Assembly: GCF_009914755.1 (NCBI RefSeq)
Contig: NC_060925.1
DNA from: the human T2T-CHM13v2.0 reference genome, Homo sapiens
Length of the DNA: 64,000 bases
Direction: 5' to 3' (one strand)
The position numbers were made by a program, and so were the translations under genes. Below are positions 54,883 to 64,000 of the stretch, in pieces (the stretch's first letter is position 1; each line of letters starts with the position of its first letter). The notes below the pieces were generated by a model. That model worked only from the letters and a program-made list of their open reading frames with translations. It did no database searches and was not told the DNA's origin.

Positions 54883-55116
54883 GCAGGGCCGCAATTTGAG
54901 TTCAAGGCCGGCTCTAGGACCAGGCATGAAGCAGGGCCGCAATTTGAGTTCAAGGCTGGCTCTAGGACCAGGCATGAAGCAGGGCCACAATTTGAGTTCA
55001 AGGCTGGCTCTAGGACCAGGCATGAAGCAGGGCTGCAATTTGAGTTCAAGGCTGGCTCTAGGACCAGGCATGAAGCAGGGCTGCAATTTGAGTTCAAGGC
55101 TGGCTCTAGGACCAGG
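54883..55116 (+). repeat. 48-bp VNTR, about 5 copies
   Basis: gcagggc(c/t)gcaatttgagttcaaggctggctctaggaccaggcatgaa at 54883, 54931, 54979, 55027, 55075. Confidence 0.95.
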
Positions 55117-55390
55117 TGTCTCACGCCTGTAATCATGGTACTTTGGGAGGCTGAGGTGAGAGGATTGCTTGAGGCCAGGAGTTTGAGACCAGACTGGGAA
55201 ACATTGTCTCTACAAAAAATTAAGTTATCCAGGGGTGGTGGCACATGCCTGTAGTCCCACTACTTGGAGGCTGAGATGGGAGATTGGCTTGAGCCAGGAG
55301 TTCGAGGCAGCAGTGAGTCAGTGATCGCACCCCTGCATTCCGGCCCGGGCGACAGAGCGAGACCCTGTCTTGAACAGCAACAACAACAAA
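55110..55390 (+). mobile_element. Alu (AluJ-like)
   Basis: Diverged dimer that starts inside the last VNTR unit. Confidence 0.85.
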
Positions 55391-55466
55391 GGCTGATTCT
55401 AAACTTGTTTGGAAAAGGAGTTAGAAACCTCCAAATGCTGTTTTATAGCAAGCATCAGTGCTGAAG

Positions 55467-55763
55467 TTTTTTGTTTTGTTTTGAGATGGAGTCTCGCTCT
55501 GTCATCCAGGCTGGAGTGCAGTGGTGCAATCTTGGCTCATTGAAGCCTCTGTCCCCCAGGTTCAAGTGATTCTCCTGCCTCAGCCCCCTGAGTAGTACGG
55601 ACTACAGGCGCGTGCCACCACATCTGGCTAATTTTTGTATTTCTAGTAGAGACAGGGTTTCACCATGTTGGCCAGGCTGATCTTGAACTCCTGACCTCAA
55701 GTCATCAGCCTGTCTTGGCCTCTCAAAGAGCTGGGATTACAGGCGTGAGCCACCGCACCTGGC
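55467..55763 (-). mobile_element. Alu (AluS)
   Basis: Reverse dimer; TSD cagtgctgaag. Confidence 0.92.
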
Positions 55764-56084
55764 CAGTGCTGAAGACTCAGAGTGAGTTAAGGAGGTGTGT
55801 TTCATGGAACATTTCTACTGTATTAAAAAAAGTGATCTTGAACAAAAAGAAACAAAAATACCCCTACATTTATGATAGCTTTGATCTGTCTGGCTTTCAG
55901 CTTAAGTCAAGTCCTATGAGAAAGAGGAAAATCGATCCCTTTTATCAGAGCTGGGGACAAGATAAGCAGAGAGAGAAAAATCTTTCTGATGTCATGTTGC
56001 CCTAGGACACAGTTTTAGAATTAAAAATCATAGCAGCTTAGACATCCCAGAAATTTTAAAAGTGAAAGGAGCTTTAAATGGATA

Positions 56085-57757
<1,673 letters not shown>

Positions 57758-58234
57758 TCAGGATAAGCATGGTGCTTGACGCCGCTGAAAAATCCATGAT
57801 TACAGTTAAACACTGATTCATGATGCTATAATTGACACTTAACAAATATTAAAATCAAACTGTACCTGGATACTAGTGCTCTTAAACTCTTACGCTTTTG
57901 AGCCACATTTTGGCAGAGCCTGACTATCTCAGCCTCCCTTACAGCCAAGATGACTGTCTTACCGGGTCCTAGCCAGTGGAATGTGGGAGGAAGTGATGCA
58001 TTCACATCCAGGCCCAACCCATAGAAACTCACCTGCCTTCCTCCACTACCTCTCTTTCCTACTGCTGGCAAGATGCAAAGGATACAGCACAGAGCTGCCA
58101 AGACCCGGTGAGTGGGGGCCAGAGCTACAAGACAGAAGGAGCGCATGGCCTGGACTCTGCAATGAACTGCTCCAGCAAGGAATAAACATCTATTGTATTG
58201 AGCCATAGGCTTTGGAGGTTGTTCTTTAACTTTT

Positions 58235-58660
58235 TAACTAGTTAAGGTTTCTAAATTTTCTTAGCTTTAATTTCTAAGACAGTGTATACTGATAGATGGA
58301 GTCCACATAAACAAAAGTTCTTTGGGGTCCTCAATAATTTTTAAGACATAGAGTCTTAACAGAGGGCCTGAGATCACAAGGTTTGAGAACTACTGATGGC
58401 CACTAATGTCCCTCTCACACAACCTGAATCACTAAGAAAGAGGGGAGGCATAGTGAAGTGCTGGTTTTCCCCATTTGTTTCCTGTGTAATTGCTGTAAGT
58501 CACATGTTAATGCCATCCAGATACTCACTGAAGTGCCTGGGCTTGAGATGTCCACCCAAGGGAAAGGAGAACAGGTGAAAAAGGAAGAGCCAGGGCTGGG
58601 AGGACACAAGAAGCCCGCCTGCATGGCCAGCACCCACCCAGGGCATCACTGGTATTGTTA
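58235..58660 (-). repeat. Intragenic duplicate of the LYPD8 exon end, donor site and proximal intron (paralog of 60409-60845 plus 62516-62537)
   Basis: Collinear match by eye; contains one copy of the 31-bp unit. Confidence 0.92.
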
Positions 58661-58723
58661 ACAGCAATTAACTTACCTTAACTAATAAATGTATTAACCT
58701 TTAACTGTTTGGGCAAATGTTAG

Positions 58724-58922
58724 AAATGTGTATTTTACAATGGTTAGTATCAAATGTGGATCTCACAATGGGTAGCGTCAAATGTGGATCTCACAATGGG
58801 TAGCGTCAAATGTGGATCTCACAATGGGTAGCGTCAAATGTGGATCTCACAATGGGTAGCGTCAAATGTGGATCTCACAATGGGTAGTGTCAAATGTGTA
58901 TTTTACGATAGTTAGTATCAAA
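58724..58922 (+). repeat. 28-bp VNTR, about 7 copies
   Basis: aaatgtggatctcacaatgggtagcgtc core copies with AT-richer outer copies. Confidence 0.92.
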
Positions 58923-59399
58923 CTGCTTTTGTAGAAAAGCACAATTGGTTGGATTTAAGGCCCAATTTGACTCTTTCTGCCAGGTGATCCAAGCTACCAA
59001 AAGCCAACACCTCTTAGTGACAACTAGAGAATAAAAGTGTAGATATAAAAGGAAATAAAAGTTGCACCACCCTCACCTATAGAATGATGCGACCTGGTAA
59101 AGAAGTGAATGTCAGGAGGGGTGTGATGCGCTTAGACAAATGTGACTGGATTACAAGCCACAGGAGAATAGAGTTCAAGGGAAGGGTAGCCCAGGAGAAA
59201 CAGCTCTGCTCTAAGAAGGCAGCAATAGCAGCGAGCTCAAGGCTACATGAGCAGCCACTGTATTTAAAGACATTATGGCCCTTATCCCCCTTGTCCCACG
59301 ACTCCCCTGGTCCTTCTGTGTTAACCCAGAATTTATGAACCAAGACTTGACATGTTTCCAGCCCAAGTCCCATAGAGGAATTAGAACTCCAAGACTTAC

Positions 59400-59537
59400 C
59401 ATTCTTAAGTTCTGCAACTAGAAAGACACACTGTTCTTCTTCATAGCATTTCCAGGGCTTCCCACGACAGGAAGTTCCATTAGATTCATAACAAGCAGGG
59501 CACTCTGCGTTGCTGGACACGTTCTTCAGGGGAGGGT
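59400..59537 (-). CDS. LYPD8: LYPD8 coding exon (first half of LU domain 2)
   Basis: ccag|AC ... G|GTAAGT, 138 bp, phase 1-1; (D)PPLKNVSSNAECPACYESNGTSCRGKPWKCYEEEQCVFLVAELKN. Confidence 0.96.
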
Positions 59538-60058
59538 CTGGAAGAGTCAGAGTCATTACTCAGGACAGTGTTATCATACAGAACATGGGAGGAAGGGGAT
59601 AGGCAAGCAAAGAAAGCACCAAAGAGATCGGAGAACGGAGCAATGACATCCTTGGGAATCTCAGATCTAGCCTTGAAAACACCATGTCTCCTCAAAATAT
59701 TTACTACACACAGCTCCACAGATCTGCTCTAACAGACTATCTAGCCTTTAAGAACTGTGGCCCATCAGTGTGTTTGGGTATAGACTGAGAAAGGTAAGAT
59801 TTTGAGCTAAAACCAAACTATAGTCAACATGAACATTAGCTAGCCATCCTGAACATTTGCCAATAAGTGGGTGAGTGTTACTAAATCCTGCTCTGAACAA
59901 ATGAACACAGGCCACTATTTAACATTATGACTAGAAGAAAAAAATTTACAATGAGACCAGCTCTGCTCTTAATTAACTGTGCTTTATGACCATGGCCAAT
60001 AAACTTTGCCGTTTCAGCCACATTTTCTGTTTTTCAAAAAGAGAGCTTTGGTCTAGAT

Positions 60059-60567
60059 CAGCAGGTCTCAAATTGTGGTGCAGGAAGCCTTGAGTCCCTG
60101 AGACCCTTACAGGGAGTACTACAAGGTTCAAACCATACTCATGATAATACTAAAATATTATTTACTTATTTCACTCTCTTTCTCTTGTGAATGTAAAGTG
60201 GAGTTTCCCAGAGGCTCCATGATGTGTGAGACTGTAACAGACTAAATGCACAAGTAAATATGAGAATCCAGCTGTCTTTTATTAAGTCAGAAACTAAAGA
60301 ATTTCCAAAAGGTATAATAACAATGCCACCCTTCCCGTTGTATATGTTTCTTTTGGAGAATATAGTTATATTACTGTTGATGTGTAATGTGTTTTGGTTA
60401 TTTTGGCAAACTAGTTACAATTTGTAAATATTATTAGCTTTAATTTCTAAGACAGTACATATTGATAGATGGAGTCCACATAAACGAAAGTTCTTTGGGG
60501 TCCTCAATAATTTTTAAGACATAGAGTCTTAACAGAGGGCCTGAGATCACAAAATTTGAGAACTACT
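60059..60567. mobile_element. hAT-Charlie DNA transposon (Charlie4a-like)
   Basis: TIR-like cagcaggtctcaaa ... tttgagaactactg. Confidence 0.65.
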
Positions 60568-60816
60568 GACGGGAACTAAAGTCCCTCTCGCACAACTTGC
60601 AATGTCTGTCTTCACTAAGAAAGAGGGGAGGCATGGCGGAAGTGCTGGTTTGCCCCATTTGTTTCCTGTGTAATTGCTGTAAGTCCGATGTTAATGCCAT
60701 CCGGATATACACTGAAGTGTCTGGACTTGAGATGTCCACCCAAGGGAAAGGAGAACGGTTGAAAAAGGAAGAACCAGGGCTGAGAGGACACAGGAAGGCA
60801 GGAAGGCTGTCCACAT

Positions 60817-62527
60817 GGCCAGCAGCACCCACCCAGGGCATCGCCCGCACGGCCAGCACCCACCCAGGGCATCCCCCGCACGGCCAGCACCCACCCAGGG
60901 CATCGCCCGCACGGCCAGCACCCACCCAGGGCATCGCCCGCACGGCCAGCAGCACCCACCCAGGGCATCGCCCGCACGGCCAGCAGCACCCACCCAGGGC
61001 ATCGCCCGCACGGCCAGCACCCACCCAGGGCATCGCCCGCACGGCCAGCACCCACCCAGGGCATCCCCCGCACGGCCAGCACCCACCCAGGGCATCCCCC
61101 GCACGGCCAGCACCCACCCAGGGCATCGCCCGCACGGCCAGCACCCACCCAGGGCATCGCCCGCACGGCCAGCACCCACCCAGGGCATCGCCCGCACGGC
61201 CAGCACCCACCCAGGGCATCGCCCGCACGGCCAGCACCCACCCAGGGCATCGCCCGCACGGCCAGCAGCACCCACCCAGGGCATCGCCCGCACGGCCAGC
61301 ACCCACCCAGGGCATCCCCCGCACGGCCAGCACCCACCCAGGGCATCCCCCGCACGGCCAGCACCCACCCAGGGCATCGCCCGCACGGCCAGCACCCACC
61401 CAGGGCATCCCCCGCACGGCCAGCACCCACCCAGGGCATCGCCCGCACGGCCAGCACCCACCCAGGGCATCGCCCGCACGGCCAGCACCCACCCAGGGCA
61501 TCGCCCGCACGGCCAGCACCCACCCAGGGCATCCCCCGCACGGCCAGCACCCACCCAGGGCATCCCCCGCACGGCCAGCACCCACCCAGGGCATCCCCCG
61601 CACGGCCAGCACCCACCCAGGGCATCGCCCGCACGGCCAGCACCCACCCAGGGCATCGCCCGCACGGCCAGCACCCACCCAGGGCATCCCCCGCACGGCC
61701 AGCACCCACCCAGGGCATCGCCCGCACGGCCAGCACCCACCCAGGGCATCGCCCGCACGGCCAGCACCCACCCAGGGCATCCCCCGCACGGCCAGCACCC
61801 ACCCAGGGCATCGCCCGCACGGCCAGCACCCACCCAGGGCATCGCCCGCACGGCCAGCACCCACCCAGGGCATCGCCCGCACGGCCAGCACCCACCCAGG
61901 GCATCCCCCGCACGGCCAGCACCCACCCAGGGCATCGCCCGCACGGCCAGCACCCACCCAGGGCATCCCCCGCACGGCCAGCACCCACCCAGGGCATCGC
62001 CCGCACGGCCAGCACCCACCCAGGGCATCCCCCGCACGGCCAGCACCCACCCAGGGCATCCCCCGCACGGCCAGCACCCACCCAGGGCATCCCCCGCACG
62101 GCCAGCACCCACCCAGGGCATCCCCCGCACGGCCAGCACCCACCCAGGGCATCCCCCGCACGGCCAGCACCCACCCAGGGCATCCCCCGCACGGCCAGCA
62201 CCCACCCAGGGCATCCCCCGCACGGCCAGCACCCACCCAGGGCATCCCCCGCACGGCCAGCACCCACCCAGGGCATCGCCCGCACGGCCAGCACCCACCC
62301 AGGGCATCCCCCGCACGGCCAGCACCCACCCAGGGCATCCCCCGCACGGCCAGCACCCACCCAGGGCATCGCCCGCACGGCCAGCACCCACCCAGGGCAT
62401 CGCCCGCACGGCCAGCACCCACCCAGGGCATCCCCCGCACGGCCAGCACCCACCCAGGGCATCCCCCGCACGGCCAGCACCCACCCAGGGCATCGCCCGC
62501 ACGGCCAGCACCCACCCAGGGCATCGC
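60817..62527 (-). repeat. 31-bp GC/CpG-rich VNTR, about 55 units, each containing the LYPD8 exon end and splice donor
   Basis: Minus-strand unit GATGCCCTGG|GTGGGTGCTGGCCGTGCGGG(C/G); 62515-60832 = 54x31 + 3x3. Confidence 0.97.
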
Positions 62528-62680
62528 TGGTGTTGCTGCATTCCTTTCCTTGGCAGCACTGGCTTACAAAATGAAAGTGTTCTTCAGCAGACACGTGGAC
62601 AGTGAAGGCTGTAATGTGTGTCTCCTCACTGCAGTTCTCCGCTGAGCAGAACATATTCTGGTATAATCTGACTGGTGTCT
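62516..62680 (-). CDS. LYPD8: LYPD8 coding exon (second half of LU domain 1)
   Basis: tgtgtag|AG ... CTGG|GTGGGT, 165 bp, phase 1-1; (E)TPVRLYQNMFCSAENCSEETHITAFTVHVSAEEHFHFVSQCCQGKECSNTSDAL. Confidence 0.95.
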
Positions 62681-63084
62681 CTACACAAAGACAAACACAG
62701 ACTGTCAGCCCCTGGTAAGGAGGAGGTGTGGGGAGGGTGGAGACCCAGAATAGCAACTGTTTCAGGCAAAGGCAGAAAATGCAACCTCAGTATCATGCAG
62801 TTTTGAAGACACTGGAGAGGGTTTTCCGGAAAAAATAATAATAATTCTTCCCATCGGGTAACCCCTCCTTTGAGCAGGAGGCTATCAGAGGTGCAGGTTA
62901 AACTCCAGGCAAAAGTCTGATTGGGAGCCTGAAAATGGTTGGTCCAAGTGGACAGTCCCTGAAGCCTTCAATAAGTCTTAAGAGCTGTAAAAATGATCAA
63001 ACAGACATGACGAGCCTTATGTGCAATATGACATCCACAGTTCCTGCCTAAAAATTGAACCTGAATCCAGTCAAGCTTCTAGCC

Positions 63085-63280
63085 AGAGCTATCTAATATG
63101 GTAGCCACTAGCTATTTGTGCCTATTTAAATTTAAATTTTATTAATTAAAATAAAATCAAATTTAAAATTAAGCTCCTCAGCCATAGTAGCCATATATCA
63201 AGTGCTCAGTAGCCATATGTGACTACAGTATGGCACAGTGTTAATACAGATACTTTCATCATTGAAGAAGGCACTGCTAG
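63085..63280. mobile_element. MER3/MER33-like DNA transposon
   Basis: 'aatatggtagccactagctatttgtg..tttaaatttaaatt..caagtgctcagtagccatatgtg'. Confidence 0.65.
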
Positions 63281-63624
63281 TCAGCCCTGATTACCTATAC
63301 AAGAAACACTGAGAACAGGAGAGCAAGTTATATGAAACCAGCAGGAAGCAATCAACCACAGCTAGAATATGGGACAGCTACAGGACAAATGACCCATTTC
63401 TCTAACAAACCAATAGGATTGAACAAAAAATGATGGAAGCTGTTATAAAACAAGTTAGGCTTAACAGACCTAACAGCAAAATGGGGGATTTGGCTGGGAT
63501 CCTAATTTCGCACATAGACCACATCATGACATCTTTGAAACAATTAAGAAATGTTTAAGATGGCCTGGATATTAGAAGAAATTAAAGAATTACAGTTAAT
63601 TTTCTCAGGTATGATAACAGTATG

Positions 63625-63992
63625 TGTCTTAGTTCATTTTGTGTTGCTATACCAGAATACCATGGATTGGATAACCTATAAAGAGAATAAATTTATTATT
63701 TACAGTACTAGAGTCTGCAAAGTACAACATCAAAGTGCCAGCCTCTGGTGAAGACTTTCTTCTGCATCATCCCACGGCAGAAGGGCAAGAGAGGGTGAGA
63801 GCAAGTGAGGGAAAGAGGGGCCCAGACTCCTTTTTATCAGGAACCCACCTCCACATTCATGACATCAATGCATTCACAAGGGCGGAGTCCTCACAGCCTA
63901 ATCACTTCTGAATGGTCCCACCTCTTAATACCATCACGGTGGCAATTAAGTTTCAACATTAGTTTTGGAGGGAATATTCAAACCATAGCAAT
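63625..63992 (-). mobile_element. MaLR LTR (MST/MLT1A-like)
   Basis: tgtcttagttcattttgtgttgctata ... attcaaaccatagca. Confidence 0.75.
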
Positions 63993-64000
63993 ATGATAGT

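What the first reader, a model, noticed from the sequence alone, without database searches (positions are those of the whole stretch)
60817..62527. A minisatellite made of about 55 tandem copies of the LYPD8 splice donor
Seen: the exon ends ...AGC GAT GCC CTG G|GTGGGT (GT at 62515). The VNTR unit is the last 10 exonic nt, this donor, and downstream intron, so an identical donor context recurs every 31 nt (62484, 62453, 62422 ... 60832; 55 sites). The unit has no stop codon in any frame and 31 mod 3 = 1, so every third donor (18 sites, including the last) is in frame with the next exon. Each 93-nt step would insert GGCWPCGRCPGWVLAVRGMPWVGAGRAGDAL (3 Cys) between the two LU domains, up to 561 aa. 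The other 36 donors would frameshift and probably trigger NMD. Established: LYPD8 is a GPI-anchored colonic protein that binds flagellated bacteria. Inference: copy number could set the yield of correct mRNA through competing U1 sites, or create a ladder of linker-extended isoforms. Short-read aligners would tend to misassign such junctions.
Basis: partly seen in the sequence, partly recalled or inferred. Interest (0 to 1): 0.92.

Follow-up and report, generated by a model that had tools for sequence, protein, structure and literature searches.

The report
Repeated splice donor minisatellite in LYPD8
A 1.7-kb run of 55 near-identical 31-base repeats starts at the end of a LYPD8 exon, so the exon's splice signal is copied 54 more times into the intron; a few other human genes are known to have this arrangement, and there the extra copies mostly stay silent.

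Summary
TRF finds a 31-nt array of 54.7 copies at 60823-62527. On the LYPD8 sense strand, 55 identical donor contexts GATGCCCTGG|GTGGGT run from 62515 to 60832. The frame arithmetic holds: 19 donors are in frame, and 36 give a stop in exon 4.

One correction: three units are 34 nt, not 31.

The kind is not new. Borensztajn et al. 2006 (PMC1557585) describe boundary-spanning minisatellites that reiterate the donor in F7, IFI6, CBS, LMNB2 and PDGFA. F7's donor, UGG/gugggu, is the same 9-mer as LYPD8's. In F7 minigenes only the most upstream site is used, whatever the copy number from 1 to 12.

At LYPD8 both RefSeq mRNAs use the first donor. No public protein in three length classes carries array-encoded peptide. 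The donor is weak, at the 12.8th percentile.

A single unexpanded copy of the exon end, donor and intron lies in intron 4 at 58236-58657, showing the pre-expansion state.

Verdict: a new and unusually large member of a known kind. The isoform ladder and yield-setting ideas remain untested, because no RNA or population data could be reached here.

The parts
60823..62527 (-). 31-nt minisatellite of 54.7 copies (51 intervals of 31 nt, 3 of 34 nt). It is G-rich on the sense strand, and its first 12 nt are the last 12 nt of LYPD8 coding exon 3.
   Evidence: TRF. Unit census. Composition: GC 77%, G 903 against C 415, 138 CpG with observed/expected 0.63, 164 G-runs.
62516..62680 (-). LYPD8 coding exon (165 nt). 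It encodes the C-terminal half of the first LU domain and ends ...SDAL + G.
   Evidence: RefSeq rows. Translation. The human protein P0001 has ...NTSDALDPPLK.
62510..62518 (-). Authentic 5' splice site TGG|GTGGGT, the most upstream of the 55 copies.
   Evidence: RefSeq exon end at 62516. PWM log-odds 0.58, the 12.8th percentile of 352 annotated chr1 GT donors. Same 9-mer as F7 IVS7.
60827..62487 (-). Span holding the 54 reiterated pseudo-donors, with GT at 62484 ... 60832. All share GATGCCCTGG|GTGGGTGCTG.
   Evidence: Their upstream context is intron-like by 4-mer score: -13.1 for the one pseudo-donor scored (no. 11), the 2nd percentile of exon sides.
59400..59537 (-). Next LYPD8 exon (acceptor side of intron 3). 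It starts AC CCT CCC, giving D-P-P with the G carried over from exon 3.
   Evidence: RefSeq rows. Junction check by script.
60409..60835 (-). Last repeat unit plus the unique intron sequence just after the array. It is homologous to the intron-4 copy.
   Evidence: BLAST: 427 nt, 86.2% identity to 58640-58236. Alignment A2.
58236..58657 (-). Unexpanded paralogous copy in intron 4. It holds 20 nt like the end of exon 3, one donor, 22 nt of the unit, and then the post-array intron sequence, so it adds a 56th donor-like site.
   Evidence: Local alignment of 62535-62494 with 58657-58616, 38 of 42 identical.. K2P 0.104 over 414 aligned sites.

Best explanation
This is a GC-rich, near-telomeric minisatellite. 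It grew by tandem amplification of a 31-nt segment that straddles the boundary between LYPD8 coding exon 3 and intron 3. As a side effect the weak donor TGG|GTGGGT is present 55 times in the pre-mRNA.

The spliceosome uses the most upstream copy. Only that copy sits at the end of a properly defined 165-nt exon with exon-like sequence upstream. As shown experimentally for the F7 IVS7 minisatellite, which has the same 9-mer donor, the first functional site in a run of identical sites is selected and the rest do not compete.

The other 54 copies are removed with the intron. The array is therefore mainly an intronic repeat with latent splice sites. The next copy would be used only if the first were damaged, adding 31 nt, a frameshift and a stop in exon 4.

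Shown here: the anatomy, the frames, the weak donor, the exon-like versus intron-like context, annotation of the first donor only, and the unexpanded paralogue.

Inferred: that the pseudo-sites are silent in colon, and that position decides the choice.
For: - Anatomy.
- Both RefSeq mRNAs use 62516 and there is no Gnomon alternative. All seven full-length orthologue proteins keep DAL followed directly by the exon-4 sequence, except one bear model.
- No array peptide in named public proteins: 8 hits of 445 scored are all LYPD8 orthologues, 0 of 989, 0 of 1.
- The donor is weak, at the 12.8th percentile of 352. The other two GT sites per unit score far worse.
- The 50 nt upstream of the first donor score +9.6 (63rd percentile of exon sides). 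Array sequence scores -7.1 to -13.1.
- F7 precedent: same 9-mer, only the most upstream site used, pseudo-sites functional when upstream ones are inactivated, exon skipping rising with distance, and no change from 1 to 12 monomers (PMC1557585: Introduction, Results sections 6 and 10, Discussion). F7 array seen in this genome.
- In mice, the F7 +5 mutant gives inclusion of one 37-bp repeat.
Against: - No RNA data could be examined, so silence of the pseudo-sites at LYPD8 is inferred.
- Out-of-frame products would be removed by NMD, so they would be missing from curated mRNAs and proteins even if made.
- IFI6 and CBS constitutively use two proximal pseudo-sites. RefSeq shows this for IFI6, although IFI6's donor is strong, at the 94.6th percentile.
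- Classical in vitro work (recalled, not checked here) can favour the donor nearest the acceptor when all are occupied.
- RNA accessibility modelling gave no consistent advantage to the first site. With local context its 9-mer is less open (4e-5 against a median of 0.002). In a co-transcriptional prefix model it is more open (0.44 against 0.26).
- F7 minigenes had at most 12 units, not 55.
Confidence: 0.68

Rival explanations
1. Leaky use of the nearest pseudo-donors. As in IFI6 and CBS, the second and third copies (+31 and +62 nt) are used at a measurable level. Both shift the frame and place a stop in exon 4, so the products are degraded by NMD and a fraction of LYPD8 output is lost. The loss would depend little on total copy number.
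For: - IFI6 and CBS use their two most proximal pseudo-sites, and RefSeq has three IFI6 mRNAs with donors 12 nt apart.
- A cited title (Yang et al. 2000, seen only as a reference) says a substitution in the second CBS repeat prevents multiple alternate splicing. LYPD8 has no such difference: 55 of 55 donors share -10 to +10.
- The stops lie 89 and 129 nt upstream of the last junction.
Against: - F7, with the same weak 9-mer, shows no use of pseudo-sites in 50 additional clones per construct.
- No alternative LYPD8 model in RefSeq or Gnomon.
- IFI6's donor is much stronger than LYPD8's, and its steps are in frame.
Confidence: 0.2
2. The array acts through its length, not through splice-site choice. 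It is 1.7 kb of G-rich non-template DNA that is dense in CpG. It could slow or modulate transcription, for example through R-loops, long-loop G-quadruplexes or methylation, or it could load U1 or hnRNP proteins. Allele length would then tune LYPD8 mRNA level, as an expression QTL.
For: - G 903 against C 415 on the sense strand; 164 G-runs; 39 non-overlapping four-run motifs with loops up to 12 nt; 138 CpG with observed/expected 0.63; GC 77%.
- A review reports that more CBS boundary repeats go with lower CBS activity.
- G-runs bind hnRNP H/F and can enhance or silence splicing (passages).
Against: - No canonical G4 motif with loops up to 7 nt: 0 found.
- No RefSeq functional element overlaps the array.
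- In F7, changing monomer number or mutating G triplets did not change splicing.
- No expression or population data were available here.
Confidence: 0.2
3. Every third donor yields a stable protein with 31-aa blocks, up to 561 aa, inserted between the two LU domains, giving linker-extended LYPD8 isoforms that have a function.
For: - 19 of 55 donors are in frame, and there is no stop in the array.
- The junction is in the inter-domain linker.
Against: - The absence of stops is a composition effect, with one A per unit.
- The peptide is low-complexity (G 140, A 83, and C, W, P and V at 54 each, in 561 aa), with 3 Cys per block, an odd number next to disulphide-rich LU domains. It matches no Pfam family.
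- No public protein carries it.
- The nearest in-frame site is the fourth, beyond two frameshifting sites.
- In F7 the in-frame pseudo-sites are not used.
Confidence: 0.03

Closest known systems
F7 (coagulation factor VII) intron 7 37-bp minisatellite
   Same: - The first monomer spans the exon/intron boundary.
- The donor 9-mer TGG|GTGGGT is identical; in this genome the identity extends to TGG|GTGGGTGC from the second F7 monomer on.
- The unit length is 1 mod 3, so the next site frameshifts.
- The donor is weak: consensus value 74 in the paper, 12.8th percentile here.
- The most upstream site is the one in the mRNA.
   Different: - F7 has 6.1 copies here and 5-9 in populations, against 55.
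- The rest of the F7 unit is C-rich and unrelated in sequence.
- The F7 pseudo-sites have been tested experimentally; LYPD8's have not.
IFI6 (6-16) intron 2 12-nt minisatellite
   Same: - A boundary-spanning array with about 25 reiterated donors.
- It lies on the same chromosome.
   Different: - The unit is 12 nt, so every step is in frame.
- The donor is strong (CAG|GTAAGG, 94.6th percentile).
- The first three donors are used and annotated as three NM records. LYPD8 has one annotated donor.
CBS exon 13/intron 13 31-bp VNTR
   Same: - The same unit length (31 bp), and the array spans the exon/intron border with 15-20 repeats.
   Different: - Two pseudo-sites are reported to be used.
- No sequence similarity to the LYPD8 unit was detected in the genome search.
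- I did not read the CBS sequence itself.
LMNB2 (100-bp) and PDGFA (81-bp) boundary minisatellites
   Same: They reiterate the exon/intron junction, and only the authentic donor is used.
   Different: The units are much longer and the copies fewer (10-18). They were not examined here.

Membership tests
Exon/intron-boundary minisatellites that reiterate the 5' splice site (F7, IFI6, CBS, LMNB2, PDGFA; Borensztajn 2006) | A tandem array whose first monomer spans an annotated exon/intron boundary | tested here: met
   The array is 60823-62527 and the exon ends at 62516, so 12 nt of overlap.
Exon/intron-boundary minisatellites that reiterate the 5' splice site (F7, IFI6, CBS, LMNB2, PDGFA; Borensztajn 2006) | The authentic donor sequence is repeated identically in downstream monomers | tested here: met
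   55 of 55 sites share GATGCCCTGG|GTGGGTGCTG.
Exon/intron-boundary minisatellites that reiterate the 5' splice site (F7, IFI6, CBS, LMNB2, PDGFA; Borensztajn 2006) | The mature mRNA uses the most upstream copy | tested here: met
   2 of 2 RefSeq mRNAs use it. The human protein reads SDAL-DPPLK. This rests on annotation only, with no RNA reads.
Exon/intron-boundary minisatellites that reiterate the 5' splice site (F7, IFI6, CBS, LMNB2, PDGFA; Borensztajn 2006) | Downstream copies are silent, or only the one or two nearest are used | not testable with these tools
Indirect evidence: no protein carries the array peptide.
Exon/intron-boundary minisatellites that reiterate the 5' splice site (F7, IFI6, CBS, LMNB2, PDGFA; Borensztajn 2006) | Pseudo-sites become active when the upstream site is inactivated | not testable with these tools
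   This needs minigenes. It has been shown for F7.
Hypervariable GC-rich subtelomeric minisatellite (VNTR proper) | Unit of 10-100 bp, GC-rich with strand asymmetry, near a chromosome end | tested here: met
   The unit is 31 nt, GC is 77%, and G is 903 against C 415. The window ends at chr1:248,188,000 of 248,387,328 (one search gives the contig length).
Hypervariable GC-rich subtelomeric minisatellite (VNTR proper) | Copy number varies between people | not testable with these tools
   There is only one haplotype here and the assemblies look-up is off. Supplements of VNTR catalogues are closed.
Protein-coding VNTR | The repeat lies within the annotated coding sequence and its peptide is present in proteins | tested here: not met
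   Only 12 nt overlap the CDS. No public protein has the peptide, and there is no Pfam match.
Ly6/uPAR (LU) two-domain protein, the host gene LYPD8 | Two UPAR_LY6 (PF00021) domains with the exon 3/4 junction between them | tested here: met
   6 of 7 aligned proteins match PF00021. There are two stretches each, at 20-108 and 124-185/195, in P0002, P0005 and P0008. Human P0001 itself gives no hit at E<=10. The structure predictor was closed.

The most novel reading that the evidence does not exclude
LYPD8 carries the largest reiterated-donor array that I came across: 55 sites, against 26 or fewer in the cases listed in PMC1557585. With that many identical weak U1 sites and G-runs, array length could act as a cis dial on a gut-barrier gene. 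It might do so through leaky frameshifting splices that feed NMD, or through U1/hnRNP loading and slowed transcription. Array alleles would then be splicing or expression QTLs for LYPD8 in colon.
Probability: 0.15. Interest if true: 0.6.

Novelty: new member of a known kind. Interest (0 to 1): 0.35.

Why it matters
LYPD8 helps to keep flagellated bacteria off the colonic epithelium (review passages).

The array puts 54 latent splice sites directly behind a weak authentic donor. This has three consequences.

1. A variant that weakens the first donor would most likely shift splicing by 31 nt and destroy the reading frame, as happens in F7 deficiency.
2. Short-read junction callers may place reads with short overhangs on any of the 55 sites.
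3. The locus is a natural, extreme test of the rule that the most upstream site wins.

If the array is polymorphic in length, it is a candidate cis variant for LYPD8 expression. Because the general phenomenon has been described since the 1990s, the value is that of a new and large example, not a new mechanism.

Tried and rejected
- Coding repeat: rejected. Only 12 nt overlap the CDS. The lack of stops follows from one A per unit. The peptide has no Pfam family, and no public protein carries it.
- RNA structure hiding the pseudo-donors: inconclusive. Two ways of modelling gave opposite signs. The F7 authors also found nothing.
- G-runs as the reason the first site wins: I considered this. The array has 6 GGG per 50 nt, against a mean of 3.37 on intron sides, but 24% of intron sides have as many. 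I downgraded it because mutating G triplets in F7 changed nothing and G-runs can act either way.
- Clustering of the C/G unit variants: not significant (25 runs against 27.9 +/- 3.6, P = 0.26).
- Other copies of the array in the genome: none. A chr13 match that I suspected to be F7 is about 1 Mb away from F7 and is not in a gene.
- Known RNA family in 58000-64000: none.
- LYPD9P as a source of the unit: no BLAST match in the window outside LYPD8.
- Solved structures: no hit for P0001 and only a chance hit for the profile.
- Literature on LYPD8 with VNTR, tandem repeat or structural variant: nothing about this array. The unit motif is not in the searched texts. One search was a poorly built query and gave nothing on LYPD8.
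- Supplementary tables of VNTR catalogues were closed and may list the locus.

Full report
**What is there.** Reading the minus strand of 60600-62800 shows LYPD8 coding exon 3 ending ...AGCGATGCCCTGG, followed by GTGGGTGCTGGCCGTGCGGG(C/G)GATGCCCTGG repeated many times. Tandem Repeats Finder gives one array at 60823-62527: period 31, 54.7 copies, 97% matches, no indels scored, score 3154. A script finds the context GATGCCCTGG|GTGGGT 55 times, with the GT at 62515, 62484 ... 60832. 51 of the 54 intervals are 31 nt and 3 are 34 nt. The 54 full units are 26 with C at the variable site, 25 with G, and 3 with a GCT insertion. The statement that the site recurs every 31 nt needs the small correction that three units are 34 nt; this also leaves 1 mod 3. 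RefSeq places the exon end at 62516 in both LYPD8 mRNAs, NM_001085474.2 and NM_001291283.2, and there is no Gnomon alternative.

**Frames.** Scripts confirm that the array has no stop codon in any of six frames and no AG on the sense strand, so it holds no acceptor. Because the array has 55 A in 1705 nt, one per unit, the absence of stops follows from composition. Because 31 is 1 mod 3, all three frames read the same 31-aa repeat, shifted by a unit. Joining by coordinates shows that 19 of 55 donors, the authentic one and the last one included, stay in frame with exon 4. The largest insertion would be 561 aa. The other 36 reach a stop in exon 4, 89 or 129 nt upstream of the last exon junction. 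By the usual 50-55-nt rule (recalled, not from a call) these would be NMD targets. Full intron retention would read on to a stop at 60617-60615.

**The host protein.** A word search with exon 3 read through into the array (240 aa) returned 8 proteins at E<=0.001 among 445 scored; 7,555 sample-only candidates were left out. All 8 are LYPD8 orthologues. Human P0001 (237 aa) reads ...NTSDAL-DPPLK. Pfam UPAR_LY6 matches 6 of 7 aligned orthologues but not the human protein, even at E<=10. In P0002, P0005 and P0008 there are two stretches, at residues 20-108 and 124-185/195. The structure predictor was closed, and no solved structure matched. One bear model (P0007) reads DAL-GGCW-Q, which is the read-through translation of the first 12 intron bases. 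This hints that the start of the intron is old, but it rests on four residues only.

**Is any downstream donor used?** I could not look at RNA. There are three indirect tests.
- Annotation: LYPD8 has one donor here. IFI6, the one case where reiterated donors are known to be used, has three curated mRNAs with exon ends 12 nt apart at 27510528, 27510516 and 27510504.
- Proteins: none of the hits in the 132-420-aa class carries array peptide. A 687-aa read-through query (378-1202 aa class) gave 0 hits among 989 candidates, with 7,011 left out. A 75-aa query (41-131 aa class) gave 0 of 1.
- Family searches: the repeat peptide matches no Pfam family.

Frameshifted products removed by NMD would escape all three tests.

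**Strength and context of the donor.** From 200 kb of gene-dense chr1 I took 359 annotated donors of RefSeq Select mRNAs, 352 of them with GT, and 20,001 background GT sites. The log-odds score of TGG|GTGGGT is 0.58. That is the 12.8th percentile of true donors, and 10.7% of background GTs score as high. 10 of 352 true donors have GTGGGT, and none has the same 9-mer. The two other GTs in each unit score -5.18 and -2.45. A 4-mer exon-versus-intron score, trained on 316 donors and cross-validated, gives +9.6 for the 50 nt upstream of the first donor (63rd percentile of exon sides). It gives -7.1 to -13.1 for array sequence (2nd to 5th percentile of exon sides). So only the first copy has an exon behind it. 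Predicted RNA accessibility did not separate the first site from the rest in a consistent way.

**Origin.** BLAST of the sequence after the array against the window found a second copy in intron 4: 60835-60409 against 58640-58236, 86.2% identity over 427 nt. The alignment shows that the copy begins with ...CAATACCAGTGATGCCCTGG|GTGGGTGCTGGCCATGCAGGCG and then continues directly into the post-array sequence. It therefore holds 20 nt like the exon end, one donor and one unit, and no array. This is the unexpanded state. Over 414 aligned sites, 374 are identical and K2P is 0.104. With recalled neutral rates of 0.5-2.2e-9 per site per year, that means tens of millions of years. The units of the array are 97% alike, so the expansion, or its homogenisation, is younger than the duplication. 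In the single-copy form a GCG lies at -12 and again at +20, 31 nt apart, which could have seeded the first duplication by slippage; that is my inference from the letters. The array is unique in the genome. It is not soft-masked in the annotation file, and no RefSeq functional element overlaps it.

**Comparison with what is known.** A full-text search led to Borensztajn et al. 2006, PLoS Genet (PMC1557585). I read its abstract, Introduction, Results sections 6 and 10, and Discussion. It states that several genes have minisatellites whose first monomer spans an exon/intron boundary, so that the donor is reiterated in the intron:
- IFI6 (6-16): 25 pseudo-sites, with the two nearest used.
- CBS intron 13: 15-20 repeats, with two pseudo-sites used.
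- LMNB2: 10-15 repeats of 100 bp, with only the authentic site used.
- PDGFA: 16-18 repeats of 81 bp, likewise only the authentic site used.
- F7 intron 7: 5-9 repeats of 37 bp.

The F7 donor is UGG/gugggu, the same nine bases as in LYPD8. I confirmed this in the present genome, where the F7 array has 6.1 copies at chr13:112,369,2xx. [quoted passage not shown] Inactivating sites one by one moves splicing to the next site and increases exon skipping. Constructs with 1 to 12 monomers splice alike, and mutating the G triplets changes nothing. A mouse study of the F7 +5 mutant shows inclusion of one 37-bp repeat (passages). For CBS, a review reports that more 31-bp repeats go with lower CBS activity (passage; table entry). 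The IFI6 array in this genome has 24.8 copies of 12 nt, with a strong donor at the 94.6th percentile.

**Reading.** LYPD8 meets the defining anatomy of this class. It resembles F7 most closely: a weak, identical donor, a unit length of 1 mod 3, and one annotated donor. The most likely behaviour is that the first site is chosen by position and exon definition and the 54 others leave with the intron. The F7 experiments speak against copy-number-dependent site choice, while CBS and IFI6 keep leaky use of the nearest sites alive as a rival. A length effect through the G-rich, CpG-dense DNA is a separate rival.

**Novelty.** Searches for LYPD8 with VNTR, tandem repeat or structural variant found nothing on this array, and the unit motif is not in the searched texts. 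Supplements, where VNTR catalogues would list it, were closed. I therefore rate this a new member of a known kind, notable for having about twice as many reiterated donors as any case listed in PMC1557585.

Noticed in passing
window 58724-58922: A second tandem repeat lies in LYPD8 intron 4: 28-nt unit, 6.2 copies, 95% matches, also scored as an 84-nt period. It sits immediately upstream (in the sense direction) of the unexpanded paralogue of the exon 3 end and donor.
   Followed up: partly
window 58236-58657 and 60409-60835 / 62494-62535: An intragenic duplication. The end of exon 3, its donor and about 430 nt of intron 3 are present a second time in intron 4, at about 90% identity over aligned sites (K2P 0.104).
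   Followed up: yes
window 60823-62527: The 1.7-kb array is not listed among the masked repeats of the annotation file. The nearest masked stretches are at 55113-57740. It meets the usual sequence criteria of a CpG island: GC 77% and CpG observed/expected 0.63.
   Followed up: partly
P0001 (human LYPD8 protein): Human LYPD8 gives no Pfam UPAR_LY6 hit even at E<=10, while 6 of 7 aligned sequences (monkey and carnivore orthologues) do, with two domains each.
   Followed up: partly
P0007 (Ursus americanus), P0004 (Saguinus oedipus), P0003 (Rhinopithecus bieti): These look like gene-model oddities. The bear model reads 4 residues (GGCW) into what is intron in human. The tamarin model has a 23-aa insertion in the second LU domain. 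The snub-nosed monkey model has an unrelated C-terminal half.
   Followed up: no
LYPD8 gene as a whole (literature): Mao et al. 2021 (PMC8172381, passages) report that a 24.3-kb deletion fixed in bonobo removes LYPD8 entirely. A hominid can therefore lose the gene.
   Followed up: no
G000 chr14:99770333-99772046 and chr17:47765210-47765292: Other places where TGGGTGGGT recurs at 37-nt spacing, found while locating F7. The chr14 one is a long array with a 37-nt unit. I did not check whether either touches an exon boundary.
   Followed up: no
G000 chr13:113364459-113364632; chr22:18926134-18926285 and 19248477-19248628: The only non-self matches to the LYPD8 array (68-70% identity). The chr22 pair lies in FAM230E/F and LOC128966596. 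They are probably unrelated GC-rich minisatellites.
   Followed up: partly
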